From: a virus
Lineage: Duplodnaviria > Heunggongvirae > Uroviricota > Caudoviricetes
DNA length: 15,263 bases
Strand: one strand, 5' to 3'
Virus record (IMG/VR): IMGVR_UViG_2529292726_000023
Location: 1 to 15,263 of that record
Shown: positions 1-15,263 of the stretch, in pieces
Numbering within the stretch: position 1 is the first letter of the stretch
Layout of the letters: each line of letters begins with the position of its first letter
Position numbers and translations under genes: made by a program
Notes under the pieces: generated by a model
Databases searched by the model: none
What the model was told of the DNA's origin: nothing
What the model saw: only the letters and a program-made list of their open reading frames with translations

Positions 1-403
<403 letters not shown>

Positions 404-4517: not shown

Positions 4518-5332
4518 GTATGGAGCTGATGGTTAAAGCGATGAAAATTCGAGTGGGTAATCCATTGCGAAAACTGGTTCTGATCAAGCTGGCTGATAAT
4601 GCCAGCGATCAGGGTGAGTGCTGGCCCAGCTACCAGCATATTGCTGACCAGTGCGAGATTAGCAAACGTTCTGTGATGAATCATATTGCGGCCCTTTGTG
4701 AGTCCGGGCTGGTAAAAAAAGTCACCCGGAAAGGTGAAAAAGGTAACTCAAGTAATATCTATCTCCTTCATCTGGATGGTGCAGGAGATTCACTAGGGGG
4801 TAGTGCAAATAATTCACTATCTGGTGCAGCAAATTCACCAGGTAGTGCAGGAGTTGCACCAGGGGGTAGTGCAGGAGATTCACCCAGAACCAGTCACTCT
4901 TTTGAACCAGTCAAAGAACCAGTCAATGAACCAATAGCTGTTGGTGCATCAGTTGATGAGTCCGTGCGAGTTCGTTCAAACCGACCGGAATATTCTCCGG
5001 AGTTTGAGCAGGCATGGCTGGCATATCCCAAACGTGCTGGTGGCAATTCAAAATCTGCAGCCTTCAAAGCCTGGAAAGCCCGTTTGAATGAGGGGGTAAA
5101 CCCCGAAACCATGCTGGAAGGTGTGAAACGCTATGCGGGCTGGGTATCTGCAATGGGTAACAGCGGCACACAATTTGTGAAACAGGCTGTCACGTTCTTT
5201 GGTCCGGATCGTCATTTCGAAGAATCCTGGGAAGTTCCTGCGGTATCTGCAGCCAGACGTGAGGACCCGTACTTCAAATCCAGTTACGACAACGTGGACT
5301 ACAGCCAGATCCCGGCAGGATTCAGGGGGTGA
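4514..5332 (+). CDS. O-like replication initiator candidate, 272 aa: N-terminal winged-HTH DNA-binding domain, Gly/Ser/Ala-rich linker, conserved C-terminal domain
   Basis: N-terminus LRKLVLIKLADNASDQGECWPSYQHIADQCEISKRSVMNHIAALCESGLVKK resembles phage replication-protein HTH domains; the linker coincides with iteron-like DNA repeats, as in lambda O/ori. Confidence 0.6.
   Translation: MSMELMVKAMKIRVGNPLRKLVLIKLADNASDQGECWPSYQHIADQCEISKRSVMNHIAALCESGLVKKVTRKGEKGNSSNIYLLHLDGAGDSLGGSANNSLSGAANSPGSAGVAPGGSAGDSPRTSHSFEPVKEPVNEPIAVGASVDESVRVRSNRPEYSPEFEQAWLAYPKRAGGNSKSAAFKAWKARLNEGVNPETMLEGVKRYAGWVSAMGNSGTQFVKQAVTFFGPDRHFEESWEVPAVSAARREDPYFKSSYDNVDYSQIPAGFRG
4778..4935. repeat. Iteron-like direct repeats inside the replication gene (candidate origin of replication)
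   Basis: Repeated units GGTAGTGCA (x3), GTGCAGGAGATTCAC (x2), ATTCAC (x4), then AACCAGTCA (x3) within about 160 bp. Confidence 0.5.
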
Positions 5333-5334
5333 TC

Positions 5335-5823
5335 ATGAGTCTTTTGAATGACGTTCAGAAATTCATTGAAGCCCATCCGGGGTGTACTTCCGGAGACATT
5401 GCGGATGCTTTTGCAGGTTACTCACGGCAGCGCGTACTGCAGTCAGCAAGCAAGTTACGTCAGAGTGGGCGTGTGGCTCACCGTTGTGAAGGGGATACAC
5501 GCAGACATTTCCCGCGCCTGACTGAGAGAGCGCAGGAGCCGGAACCACAACCAGTTCGTGAAACCAGACCTGTGCGCAATTTCTATGTCGGCACTAACGA
5601 TCCCCGGGGGATTTTGTGCCTGACCCGCCAGGCTGAAGAACTGGAGTCAAGAGGCTTATACCGTCGTGCTGCAACCGTGTGGATGGCGGCATTCCGTGAA
5701 AGCCACTCCCAGCCAGAACGAAACAATTTTCTGGCGCGTCGTGAGCGGTGCTTACGGAAAAGCAGCAAGCGCGCTGCATCGGGTGAAGAGTGGTATCTGT
5801 CAGGGAATTACGTGGGGGCTTAA
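5335..5823 (+). CDS. PerC-like transcriptional regulator domain protein, about 162 aa
   Basis: C-terminal QAEELESRGLYRRAATVWMAAF...LARRERCL resembles the PerC/Pch motif; ATG 5335 has an AGGGGG RBS. The GTG at 5329 in the ORF track is less likely. Confidence 0.5.
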   Translation: MSLLNDVQKFIEAHPGCTSGDIADAFAGYSRQRVLQSASKLRQSGRVAHRCEGDTRRHFPRLTERAQEPEPQPVRETRPVRNFYVGTNDPRGILCLTRQAEELESRGLYRRAATVWMAAFRESHSQPERNNFLARRERCLRKSSKRAASGEEWYLSGNYVGA

Positions 5824-9912: not shown

Positions 9913-10041
9913 GTTTCTTATCCATTGTTAAGGGTATACCCACACAATTATTTTTATTGGAGATGAATAATCAACCGTTTACAATCGTAAAAAATCAAAT
10001 ATGCTGTTAAGAGTGGTTACTTCGCCACACAACTTAACCCC

Positions 10042-10061
10042 GCCGCTGAGCGGTTTTTTTT
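10042..10061 (+). terminator. Intrinsic terminator (short GC stem plus T8)
   Basis: GCCGC-TGA-GCGG hairpin at 10042-10053 followed by TTTTTTTT at 10054-10061. Confidence 0.55.
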
Positions 10062-10142
10062 GTACCTGTAAACTTGGTGCAGTACAGTAAACACGCTGGT
10101 GGACAAGTGAAAAACAGCATTTAATCAGGCCTTCTGAAGATA

Positions 10143-10171
10143 TTGCAGTATTAATTCTGTAACGTTATTAT
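10143..10171 (+). promoter_or_regulatory. Candidate sigma70 promoter for the tRNA array
   Basis: -35 TTGCAG (10143-10148), 17-nt spacer, -10 TATTAT (10166-10171), about 9 nt before the first tRNA. Confidence 0.45.
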
Positions 10172-10180
10172 TCTGTGCGC

Positions 10181-10256
10181 GGCCCTTTAGCTCAGTGGTG
10201 AGAGCGAGCGACTCATAATCGCCAGGTCGCTGGTTCAAATCCAGCAAGGGCCACCA
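10181..10256 (+). tRNA. tRNA with CAU anticodon, most like tRNA-Ile2 (lysidine type; a plain scan would call it Met)
   Basis: 76-nt cloverleaf GGCCCTTTAGCTCAGTGGTGAGAGCG...CTCATAA...GGTTCAAATCCAGCAAGGGCCACCA; anticodon CAT at 10214-10216; encoded CCA; resembles enterobacterial ileX/ileZ. Confidence 0.85.
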
Positions 10257-10257
10257 A

Positions 10258-10334
10258 CTGCCACTAGCTCATCAGGAAAGAGCGTCAACCCTTTAAGTTG
10301 AGAGTGCGAGGTTCGAGTCCCCGGTGGCGGTCCA
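10258..10334 (+). tRNA. tRNA-like gene with noncanonical anticodon loop CCTTTAA (position 33 is C); anticodon reads UUU (Lys) by standard numbering; identity uncertain, possibly a pseudo-tRNA
   Basis: Acceptor CTGCCAC/GTGGCGG (one G-U pair), D-stem GCTC/GAGC, anticodon stem TCAAC/GTTGA, T-loop TTCGAGT with one A-C mismatch in the T-stem, encoded CCA. Confidence 0.5.
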
Positions 10335-10336
10335 GT

Positions 10337-10412
<76 letters not shown>

Positions 10413-10415
10413 TGT

Positions 10416-10490
<75 letters not shown>

Positions 10491-10496
10491 GTTAGA

Positions 10497-10542
10497 GTCT
10501 TTCAGTCTGCGATGATGGGAAATCCCGGAGTGACTGAAAGAC
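10497..10542. repeat. Perfect 11-bp inverted repeat GTCTTTCAGTC / GACTGAAAGAC with 24-nt spacer
   Basis: Direct reading; immediately downstream of the tRNA array. Confidence 0.7.
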
Positions 10543-10550
10543 GTTTAAGT

Positions 10551-10620
10551 TATGAATGATCGCTTTTTTTGCAAAATTGCTGTGCAGAAATACTAACCTT
10601 CGGGCAGGCGATCATTCATA
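10551..10620. repeat. Perfect 13-bp inverted repeat TATGAATGATCGC / GCGATCATTCATA with 44-nt spacer
   Basis: Direct reading; spacer contains a T7 run and a possible promoter (TTGCAA ... TACTAA). Confidence 0.7.
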
Positions 10621-10696
10621 AGCACTCTGCTTTTATTCCGATTAACTGTGGGTGGTTTGTTGGATAGAGTGCTTCCCTTACTGTATATATCGTTTC

Positions 10697-10720
10697 GCCC
10701 GCTTTTGCGGGTTTTTCTTT
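10697..10720 (+). terminator. Strong intrinsic terminator just upstream of the lysis cassette (candidate tR'-type terminator read through by Q-modified polymerase)
   Basis: GCCCGC-TTTT-GCGGG hairpin (10697-10711) followed by TTTTTCTTTT. Confidence 0.65.
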
Positions 10721-10781
10721 TCAAATCCCTTTCATTTCTCAGTGTAAAACTACGCCATCCGTTATTTGCGGAGGTGAGGCT

Positions 10782-13333: not shown

Positions 13334-13501
13334 AAAAAGGCTAGTTTTTGCATTTTTATCGGCCACCATCATCTTTGCATCTTATTGATTATTAATGTTA
13401 TTTGTTTTTTGTATGTCGAATTGAGTGTTTTTTGTTCGACATCGAACGCGTTTTCTTAAAGTTGTTCGCACGATGCATGTTTAAAGCTCTCCGGAGGAAA
13501 T

Positions 13502-13993
13502 ATGGATCATGAGTTGAAAAACCTGGTGCTGAATATTAATCAACTGGCGGCTTTATCTGGTCTGCACCGCCAGACTGTCGTGGCAAGACTGAAAAACATT
13601 CGTCCCGCTGGTGGACATGACAAACTCAAGCTATACCGGTTGACCGATATTCTGACTGAATTTATGGGGTTACCACCGCCGGTTGCTGAGGGCGAAATGG
13701 ATCCACATGAACGCAAAGCCTGGTATCAGTCTGAACGTGAGCGTCTTAAGTTCGAACAGGAAACGGCACAACTCATTCCGGCCAGTGATGTCAGACGGGA
13801 GTTTGCCATCTGGGCAAAAGCGGTCGTGCAGGTGCTGGAGACATTACCGGATATTCTGGAACGTGACTGCGGCCTGCAGCCTGTCGCTGTGAGCCGTGTT
13901 CAGTCCATTATTGATGATCTGCGCGATCAGATAGCCCTGCGGGTGACCGAAGCAGGTGCGGATGATGAGGAGGAATTACAGCAGGAGGAGTAA
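13502..13993 (+). CDS. Terminase small subunit (Nu1-like), 163 aa
   Basis: N-terminal HTH-like LNINQLAALSGLHRQTVVARLKNI, acidic C-terminus; directly precedes the large terminase with TAATG overlap; GGAGG RBS. Confidence 0.8.
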   Translation: MDHELKNLVLNINQLAALSGLHRQTVVARLKNIRPAGGHDKLKLYRLTDILTEFMGLPPPVAEGEMDPHERKAWYQSERERLKFEQETAQLIPASDVRREFAIWAKAVVQVLETLPDILERDCGLQPVAVSRVQSIIDDLRDQIALRVTEAGADDEEELQQEE

Positions 13994-14859
13994 TGCTGAA
14001 TCAGGAAACCGCAAAGGCAGCACGAACCGATTCAGGTTATATCCTTCGCGCACCGAGACGAATGCGGGTTGCTGATGCCGTTGCTCAGTATATGCGAGTG
14101 CCCATGGGGGCCGGGAACTCAGTCCCGTGGGATCCGCTGGTGGCACCGTATGTTCTTGAGCCGATGAACTGCCTGGCCTCGCGTGAATACGACGCAGTGA
14201 TATTTGTTGGTCCGGCACGAACCGGCAAGACTATCGGCCTGATTGACGGCTGGGTGATTTACAACGTGATTTGCGATCCTGCGGATATGCTGATCATTCA
14301 GATGACGGAGGAAAAAGCCCGCGAACACTCCAAAAAACGACTTGCCAGAACGTTTCGCGTCAGCCCGGAAGTGGTCAGTCGCCTGAGTCCGAACAAAAAT
14401 GACAACAACGTTTATGACAGAACATTCCTTGCTGGCAACTACCTGAAAATCGGCTGGCCGTCAGTCAATATCATGTCCTCATCAGATTATAAATGCGTGG
14501 CGCTGACGGATTATGACCGTTTTCCGGAAGATATTGATGGCGAGGGGGATGCCTTCTCTCTTGCCTCAAAACGTACCACCACATTTATGTCCAGTGGTAT
14601 GACGCTGGTGGAGAGTTCCCCCGGCAGGGATGTGAAGGATGTGAAATGGCGACGGACTTCACCGCATGAGGCTCCACCAACCACGGGGATACTGTCGCTC
14701 TATAACCGTGGCGATCGCCGTCGCTGGTACTGGCCCTGTCCACACTGTGGTGAGTATTTTCAGCCCTGCGGCGATGTGGTTGCTGGTTTCCGTGATATTG
14801 CCGATCCCGTGCTGGCAAGTGAGGCGGCTTATATTCAGTGTCCTTCCTGTTCATATTAG
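13993..14859 (+). pseudogene. Terminase large subunit (lambda gpA-like), truncated after about 288 codons at the IS21-family insertion
   Basis: Walker A-like FVGPARTGKT; ...DYDRFPEDIDGEGDAFSLASKRTT...YWPCPHCGEYFQ parallels lambda gpA; frame stops at 14857-14859, where the IS terminus begins. Full-length gpA is about 640 aa. Confidence 0.8.
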
Positions 14860-15263
14860 ACGTCAACTAGTTTTGCCGACTCGCGCCAACTATACTGGCC
14901 GCACCCTTCAGTGCGACATCAAGTCGCGCTTGTTACTGCCTTCGCTGTCTTTTTCCTGTAGCTTTCACCTTTCAGTTCGAACATATATCCGTGATGGATC
15001 AGCCGGTCTGCCGCCGCCACCGCCATAGTCTCATCCACGAAGATGCTGCCCCACATGCTGAACGGATGGTTACTGGTTATCACCAGGCTCCCACGTTCAT
15101 AGCGATGCGCTATTAACTCGAACAGTACTCCCGTTTCGGCGCTGTCGCGTTTGACATAGCCAAGATCATCCACCACTATCACCCGGTAGCGATCCAGTTT
15201 CAGTAGCAGCTCATTCAGTTTCAACTGCGCTCTGGCTTTACGTAGTTCCTGCAACAACTCTCC
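14848..15263 (-). mobile_element. IS21-family insertion sequence, partial copy (IstB side), continuing beyond the window end
   Basis: Terminus TGTTCATATTAGACGTCAACTAG at 14848 shares the TTAGACG.CAAC motif with the other IS end; IstB C-terminus encoded at 14919-15263. Confidence 0.75.
14919..15263 (-). CDS. istB: IS21-family IstB helper ATPase, C-terminal about 114 aa only (gene starts beyond the window)
   Basis: ...YRVIVVDDLGYVKRDSAETGVLFELIAHRYERGSLVITSNHPFSMWGSIFVDETMAVAAADRLIHHGYMFELKGESYRKK has the Walker B (VVDDLGY) and C-terminal features of IstB/DnaC-like ATPases. Confidence 0.85.
   Translation of the reverse strand, partial: GELLQELRKARAQLKLNELLLKLDRYRVIVVDDLGYVKRDSAETGVLFELIAHRYERGSLVITSNHPFSMWGSIFVDETMAVAAADRLIHHGYMFELKGESYRKKTAKAVTSAT

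What the first reader, a model, noticed from the sequence alone, without database searches (positions are those of the whole stretch)
13993..15263. Terminase large subunit truncated by the IS21-family insertion: prophage is probably defective
The gpA-like frame stops after about 288 codons exactly where the IS terminus begins (14848-14859), and no head or tail genes follow in the window. Unless the remainder lies beyond the IS, the prophage cannot package DNA and is a cryptic element whose regulatory and accessory genes persist.
Basis: partly seen in the sequence, partly recalled or inferred. Interest (0 to 1): 0.45.

Follow-up and report, generated by a model that had tools for sequence, protein, structure and literature searches.

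The report
Phage terminase gene split by ISEc10
A mobile DNA element (ISEc10) has recently jumped into the DNA-packaging gene of an E. coli prophage; the rest of the gene and the head and tail genes almost certainly lie just beyond it, past the end of the assembled contig, so this is an ordinary, well-known kind of prophage damage.

Summary
ORF 13993-14859 (+) encodes residues 1-287 of a GpA-type terminase large subunit whose intact form is 700 aa. It is cut by the end of an IS21-family element, ISEc10, which starts at 14854. The target duplication TGTTCA lies at 14848-14853, and the last Tyr codon and the TAG stop come from the IS.

The inference that no head or tail genes follow is an artefact. 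The window is a whole draft contig (APXK01000162.1) that breaks inside repeats at both ends: IS100 on the left, ISEc10 on the right.

A closed genome (CP025886.1) differs from the window by 3 substitutions over 15,263 bases and carries the same insertion. There, the 2,410-bp IS is followed by a second TGTTCA, terminase codons 288-700, then portal, protease/capsid and tail genes. Removing the IS and one repeat copy in silico rebuilds a terminase gene 100% identical in nucleotides to an intact allele.

So this is a simple, recent insertion, not a deletion. The prophage probably cannot package its own DNA, but it is otherwise colinear. It also carries IS2 with a nested IS100 in yfdQ. It could be rescued in trans, as shown for O157 Sakai Sp4. 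This is a known phenomenon of low interest.

The parts
13993..14859 (+). Truncated terminase large-subunit ORF (terL'): 287 native codons, 1 IS-encoded Tyr, then TAG.
   Evidence: ORF list and translation. Pfam GpA_ATPase E=1.3e-69. Walker A GPARTGKT at residues 73-80. 100% identical to residues 1-287 of the intact 700-aa protein.
14848..14853 (.). TGTTCA, the target sequence duplicated by the ISEc10 insertion (left copy).
   Evidence: In CP025886.1 the same hexamer directly follows the other IS end, and terL resumes from it.
14854..15263 (-). Right (istB-side) end of ISEc10, IS21 family. The terminal inverted repeat starts at 14854, and the 3' part of istB lies at 14919-15263 (minus strand). 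The window ends inside the element.
   Evidence: 99.8% identity to annotated ISEc10 copies. The full 2,410-bp copy in L003 has IstA and IstB above the NCBIfam IS21 cut-offs. It is identical to another ISEc10 copy in strain 510016.
14854..14859 (+). IS-derived TAT (Tyr288) and TAG stop that close the truncated frame.
   Evidence: Alignment of the window with the intact gene...TGT TCA | TAT TAG versus ...TGT TCA GGA CGG.
13502..13993 (+). DUF1441 gene in the small-terminase position, intact, immediately upstream of terL.
   Evidence: Pfam PF07278 E=1.1e-43. RefSeq annotation of homologous loci.
1..335 (-). Left (istA-side) end of IS100, IS21 family; the istA start codon is at 249. This is the other contig end.
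   Evidence: 100% match to IS100. The terminus ...GTTCGTGACA was defined from three copies. The 1,954-bp element with 5-bp repeat TCAGG is seen in CP025886.1.
336..351 (.). Terminal 16 nt of an IS2 copy into which IS100 inserted.
   Evidence: In CP025886.1 and strain 510016 the rest of IS2 lies on the far side of IS100.
352..398 (-). First ~16 codons of prophage gene yfdQ (DUF2303), cut by the IS2 insertion. GAAAT at 352-356 is the IS2 target duplication.
   Evidence: Comparison with uninterrupted relatives and with CP025886.1.

Best explanation
A single, recent, simple transposition of ISEc10 (IS21 family, 2,410 bp) landed in codon 287/288 of the 700-codon GpA-type terminase large-subunit gene of a lambdoid prophage. 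The site is 17 profile positions before the end of the ATPase domain and upstream of the nuclease domain.

The insertion splits the gene in two. One piece is the 288-codon N-terminal ORF seen in the window, closed by a stop codon in the IS end. The other is a C-terminal piece that lies, with the portal, capsid and tail genes, directly beyond the IS. The window does not show this because it is a short-read contig that breaks inside the repeated IS.

Consequence (inferred): no full-length TerL is made, so the prophage cannot cut and package its own DNA. All other late and early genes in view are intact, so it could still lyse the host, express its cargo and possibly be packaged in trans or repaired by recombination.
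For: Shown:
- terL homology is 100% up to 14853, and ISEc10 homology starts at 14854.
- The window equals contig APXK01000162.1.
- CP025886.1 has the identical junction and differs from the window only at 5609, 6504 and 10038.
- There, the IS is flanked by direct TGTTCA repeats and followed by a 410-aa GpA_nuclease ORF, then a 70-aa ORF, portal (502 aa), ClpP/capsid fusion (675 aa) and tail genes. These have the same lengths as in the uninterrupted locus of strain 510016.
- Deleting the IS and one repeat gives a 2,103-nt ORF with 0 nucleotide differences from the intact allele.
- tblastn finds residues 1-287 in the window and residues 1-287 plus 286-700 in L003.
- IstA (227 bits, cut-off 160) and IstB (266.7 bits, cut-off 200) pass the NCBIfam IS21 models.
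- The same truncated protein is encoded on five contigs read from public assemblies (four besides the window's own contig), and the four draft contigs all end at or just inside the IS.
Against: The DNA beyond the IS in the window's own genome (GCA_000356245.1) could not be retrieved, so the continuation is inferred from a near-identical closed genome. Recombination between ISEc10 copies could have rearranged this particular strain, as happened to the same prophage in strain 510016 through other IS copies. Loss of packaging function is inferred from the split and was not tested.
Confidence: 0.88

Rival explanations
1. IS-mediated deletion or rearrangement. Here the ISEc10 copy would mark a breakpoint beyond which the terminase 3' part and the head and tail genes are gone or moved elsewhere. 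The window would then be a truly cryptic remnant.
For: Nothing beyond the IS is visible in the window. The same prophage in strain 510016 has been scrambled by recombination between IS copies: ISEc62 in the lysozyme gene, and IS100 copies with a split GTAAC repeat.
Against: A closed genome with 3 SNPs relative to the whole window shows a colinear prophage. It has intact target duplications around ISEc10 (TGTTCA), IS100 (TCAGG) and IS2 (GAAAT), and the structural module lies directly after the IS.
Confidence: 0.08
2. Assembly artefact: the terL/IS junction is a chimeric join made by the assembler, and the gene is really intact.
For: The contig ends in repeats at both ends, which is where assemblers make errors.
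Against: The identical junction is present in an independently closed chromosome and in three further assemblies or read sets. A 6-bp target duplication flanks a complete IS.
Confidence: 0.01
3. A functional split terminase. The N-terminal ATPase fragment (1-288) and a separately translated C-terminal fragment (from Met291, preceded by AGGA 6 nt upstream) would associate and still package DNA.
For: The break lies near the ATPase/nuclease domain boundary: ATPase 41-304, nuclease 326-644. An ATG with a Shine-Dalgarno-like AGGA lies 3 codons past the insertion. The gene shows no decay.
Against: The last 17 profile positions of the ATPase domain are separated from the rest. From general knowledge of large terminases, translocation needs both domains in one chain. 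The absence of decay is equally explained by a very recent insertion. Nothing was tested.
Confidence: 0.03

Closest known systems
IS-disrupted terminase genes in lambdoid prophages of E. coli O157 Sakai (Sp4, nu1::IS; Asadulghani et al. 2009, PMC2669165)
   Same: A lambdoid E. coli prophage whose packaging enzyme gene is interrupted by an insertion sequence while most other genes remain. It is one of several IS hits in the same prophage.
   Different: Here the large subunit (GpA type) is hit rather than the small subunit, and the IS is ISEc10 (IS21 family). Packaging in trans was shown for Sp4 and is only a possibility here.
Phage lambda gpA / GpA-type large terminase (Pfam PF05876 + PF20454)
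   Same: N-terminal ATPase domain with Walker A, a C-terminal nuclease domain, and a gene placed between a small-subunit-position gene and the portal gene.
   Different: In this lineage the two domains are on separate ORFs because of the IS. The upstream gene is DUF1441 rather than a recognised Nu1.
ISEc10 and other IS21-family elements (IS21, IS100)
   Same: An overlapping istA-istB pair, long imperfect terminal inverted repeats, a short target duplication and simple insertion. ISEc10 insertions at other E. coli loci are documented (afa/dr promoter region in ST131, PMC8764528).
   Different: Nothing functionally different. This is only a new insertion site. As delimited by the repeat, the ends read TA...TA rather than the TG...CA that I recall as typical of the family.

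Membership tests
GpA-type terminase large subunit | N-terminal GpA_ATPase domain with a Walker A motif | tested here: met
   PF05876 E=1.3e-69, residues 41-287 matching profile positions 2-230 of 247. GPARTGKT at residues 73-80. The last 17 profile positions are missing from the window ORF.
GpA-type terminase large subunit | C-terminal GpA_nuclease domain in the same polypeptide | tested here: not met
   It is absent from the 288-aa window ORF. In CP025886.1 it sits on a separate 410-aa ORF beyond the IS (PF20454, E=3.1e-86). The intact allele has both domains in 700 aa.
GpA-type terminase large subunit | Position in the late operon between the small-subunit gene and the portal gene | tested here: met
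   DUF1441 lies immediately upstream in the window. The portal gene (PF05136) follows the terL 3' part in L003 and in the uninterrupted locus L001.
GpA-type terminase large subunit | ATP-driven cos cleavage and packaging activity | not testable with these tools
   This needs induction and packaging assays.
IS21 family (ISEc10) | IstA DDE transposase | tested here: met
   NF033546 scores 227 bits against a cut-off of 160 on the 499-aa ORF of the full copy in L003. This ORF is not inside the window.
IS21 family (ISEc10) | IstB helper ATPase downstream of and overlapping istA | tested here: met
   NF038214 scores 266.7 bits against a cut-off of 200. The istA stop overlaps the istB start at L003 11679-11682. 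The window holds the C-terminal ~114 codons.
IS21 family (ISEc10) | Terminal inverted repeats and a short target-site duplication | tested here: met
   The ends TATGAGACGACAA... and TATTAGACGTCAA... (reverse complement) match at 11 of the first 13 bases and continue imperfectly for about 49 nt. A 6-bp TGTTCA repeat flanks the element. A second copy in strain 510016 is flanked by ATCAGCG.
IS21 family (ISEc10) | Terminal dinucleotides 5'-TG...CA-3' (recalled from memory as typical of the family) | tested here: inconclusive
   IS100 in the window ends ...GTGACA, as expected. As delimited by the repeats, ISEc10 ends TA...TA, with TG two bases in. The defining criterion itself is from memory.

The most novel reading that the evidence does not exclude
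The insertion happens to fall near the ATPase/nuclease domain boundary, and an SD-ATG lies 3 codons downstream. The prophage might therefore make a two-piece terminase that still works, or the IS might excise precisely at a useful rate, which would make packaging competence switchable.
Probability: 0.03. Interest if true: 0.4.

Novelty: already known. Interest (0 to 1): 0.08.

Why it matters
It matters little beyond annotation. It shows that this strain's prophage is packaging-defective through one recent IS hit, not through decay. This bears on whether its cargo (a PerC-family regulator and tRNA genes) can still be mobilised. It is also a practical reminder that a gene cut at a contig end, with nothing after it, is usually an assembly break at a repeat and not a deletion.

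Tried and rejected
- An exact-match scan of genome contigs for the 40-nt terL/IS junction found nothing. The source strain is not a species representative.
- Hit H31 (strain 200112) appeared to cover the junction, but it is ISEc10 next to ISEc12, with a few chance matches.
- A homologue search with that ORF listed only full-length or end-clipped terminases (643-702 aa) among its best 120 hits, not the 410-aa fragment, so the look-up could not be made. It did show that the full-length form is very widespread in E. coli and Shigella.
- A look-up with the 182-aa YfdP ORF and one with the repressor did not bring up CP025886.1. The Rha protein did.
- A PDB sequence search with the intact protein gave no hit, so the break could not be mapped on a solved structure.
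- A promoter and terminator scan of the IS gave no more sites than shuffled sequence, so nothing can be said about polarity.

Full report
**What is in the sequence**

The + strand carries an ATG-initiated ORF at 13993-14859, 288 codons plus TAG. Pfam assigns it to the ATPase domain of GpA-type large terminases (PF05876, E=1.3e-69). The match stops at profile position 230 of 247. A canonical Walker A motif (GPARTGKT) lies at residues 73-80. The gene directly upstream (13502-13993) is an intact DUF1441 gene, which occupies the small-subunit position.

**Is the ORF truncated, and by what**

- A megablast of 13400-15263 against 5,426 complete E. coli genomes found about 2,500 records. All matches to the terminase part end at window 14853, and no record covers 80% or more of the query.
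- The best hit, strain 510016, is 100% identical up to 14853. Its gene is 2,103 nt (700 codons) and has both GpA_ATPase (41-304) and GpA_nuclease (326-644) domains.
- The remaining 410 bases of the window are 99.8% identical to copies of ISEc10. These are annotated as an IS21-like element, with istB on the minus strand.
- Base-by-base comparison puts the breakpoint between 14853 and 14854...TGT TCA | TAT TAG in the window against ...TGT TCA GGA CGG in the intact gene. Tyr288 and the stop codon are therefore IS sequence.

**Where the window comes from**

An exact look-up of the 288-aa product found five contigs. One is APXK01000162.1 (assembly GCA_000356245.1), which is 15,263 bases long and identical to the window. 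The window is therefore a whole draft contig.

It ends in repeated elements on both sides. Positions 1-335 are the istA end of IS100, and 14854-15263 is the istB end of ISEc10. That is the usual signature of a short-read assembly breaking at repeats. It explains why no head or tail genes follow.

**What lies beyond the IS**

The same look-up returned the closed chromosome CP025886.1. Over the full length of the window it differs at only three positions: 5609, 6504 and 10038.

- In that genome the IS is a complete 2,410-bp ISEc10, with istA (499 aa) and istB (251 aa).
- Both proteins exceed the curated NCBIfam cut-offs for the IS21 family: 227 bits against 160, and 266.7 against 200.
- The element has long imperfect terminal inverted repeats and is flanked by a direct repeat of TGTTCA.
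- After the second TGTTCA the terminase sequence resumes.
- It is followed by a 70-aa ORF, portal (502 aa), ClpP-protease/capsid fusion (675 aa), decoration, head-tail and tail genes. These have the same lengths as in the uninterrupted locus of strain 510016.
- Deleting the IS and one repeat copy in silico gives a 2,103-nt ORF with zero nucleotide differences from the intact 510016 allele.
- tblastn with the intact protein finds residues 1-287 in the window, and residues 1-287 plus 286-700 in CP025886.1.

This is a simple transposition, recent enough that the split gene has not accumulated a single further change.

**The rest of the prophage**

All early, regulatory and lysis genes in the window have the same lengths as in uninterrupted relatives.

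The left contig end is a second site of damage.

- IS2 has inserted, with a GAAAT repeat, about 16 codons into yfdQ (DUF2303).
- IS100 has then inserted, with a TCAGG repeat, 16 nt from the IS2 end.
- Window 336-351 is therefore a sliver of IS2.
- In CP025886.1 the left arm (yfdQ, yfdR, a 120-aa ORF, DUF551 and further genes) continues colinearly beyond these elements.
- Uninterrupted relatives carry the integrase a few kb further on, next to yjjG.

In strain 510016 the same prophage kept terL intact but was broken differently. ISEc62 sits in the lysozyme gene, ISEc10 and IS100 sit in the tape-measure gene, and there are inversions between IS copies.

**How it most likely works**

Shown: the gene is split near the ATPase/nuclease boundary, and the remainder of the late operon is present in the closed relative.

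Inferred:
- No full-length TerL is made, so cos cleavage and translocation by this prophage's own enzyme are lost.
- Q-dependent late transcription would have to cross the IS antisense to istAB. A simple scan found no more terminator-like sites than in shuffled sequence, so polarity cannot be judged.
- A C-terminal ORF starting at Met291 has an AGGA 6 nt upstream and might be translated. A working two-piece terminase is unlikely.

'Cannot package' should be read as 'cannot package by itself'. In O157 Sakai, prophage Sp4 has an IS in its small-terminase gene, yet its DNA is packaged, most likely by the terminase of Sp14, which has a near-identical cos (PMC2669165). This terminase type is extremely common in E. 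coli and Shigella, so a helper is plausible. It was not checked for this strain.

**Comparison with what is known, and novelty**

IS insertions that inactivate lambdoid prophage genes, terminase genes included, are well documented (PMC2669165). ISEc10 is a known IS21-family element found inserted at other E. coli loci (PMC8764528). The only new element is the particular insertion site. It is rare: absent from 5,426 complete RefSeq genomes and found on five contigs from a handful of public samples.

**Limits**

I could not retrieve the partner contig from the window's own assembly. The continuation beyond the IS is therefore inferred from a genome that differs by 3 bases in 15 kb. No functional claim was tested.

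**Verdict**

The gene is disrupted, but the element is not a stripped remnant. This is an ordinary phenomenon: interest 0.08.

Noticed in passing
window 1-398: Nested insertion sequences at the left contig end. IS100 (1-335, minus orientation, 5-bp repeat TCAGG) sits 16 nt inside the end of an IS2 copy (336-351). That IS2 copy in turn (5-bp repeat GAAAT, 352-356) cut prophage gene yfdQ/DUF2303 after about 16 codons (352-398, minus strand). Several other E. coli records share the IS100 + IS2-end junction, which suggests a widespread composite or a preferred target.
   Followed up: partly
window 10181-10490: Four tandem tRNA genes lie between the Q antiterminator gene and the holin gene: CAT anticodon (ARAGORN calls it Met, RefSeq annotates the homologue as Ile), Lys-TTT, Thr-TGT and Gly-TCC. 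The flanking stretches (9913-10180 and 10491-10781) have no ORF of 50 aa or more.
   Followed up: no
window 5329-5823: A PerC-family transcriptional regulator gene (yfdN-like) sits in the early region. One of the three SNPs against CP025886.1 (5609) falls in it. Gene callers give 164 or 162 aa depending on the start chosen.
   Followed up: no
L001 and L008 (E. coli 510016, NZ_CP025851.1): The same prophage in strain 510016 has an intact terL but is split into pieces about 125 kb apart. ISEc62 sits in the lysozyme gene, and ISEc10 plus IS100 sit in the tape-measure gene. A GTAAC target repeat is divided between two IS100 copies, which indicates inversion by IS100 x IS100 recombination. Its tape-measure ISEc10 copy is 100% identical over 2,410 bp to the copy in terL of CP025886.1.
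   Followed up: partly
window 14666-15028 (+) and 14585-14866 (-): Two ORFs (120 aa and 93 aa) span the terL/IS junction in other frames. They are created by the junction or overlap terL, and they look spurious.
   Followed up: no
L003 13272-14519 (CP025886.1): The 3' part of terL is called as a 410-aa ORF starting at Met291 of the intact protein, with AGGA 6 nt upstream of the ATG. The two terminase domains are therefore annotated as separate genes in that genome.
   Followed up: partly
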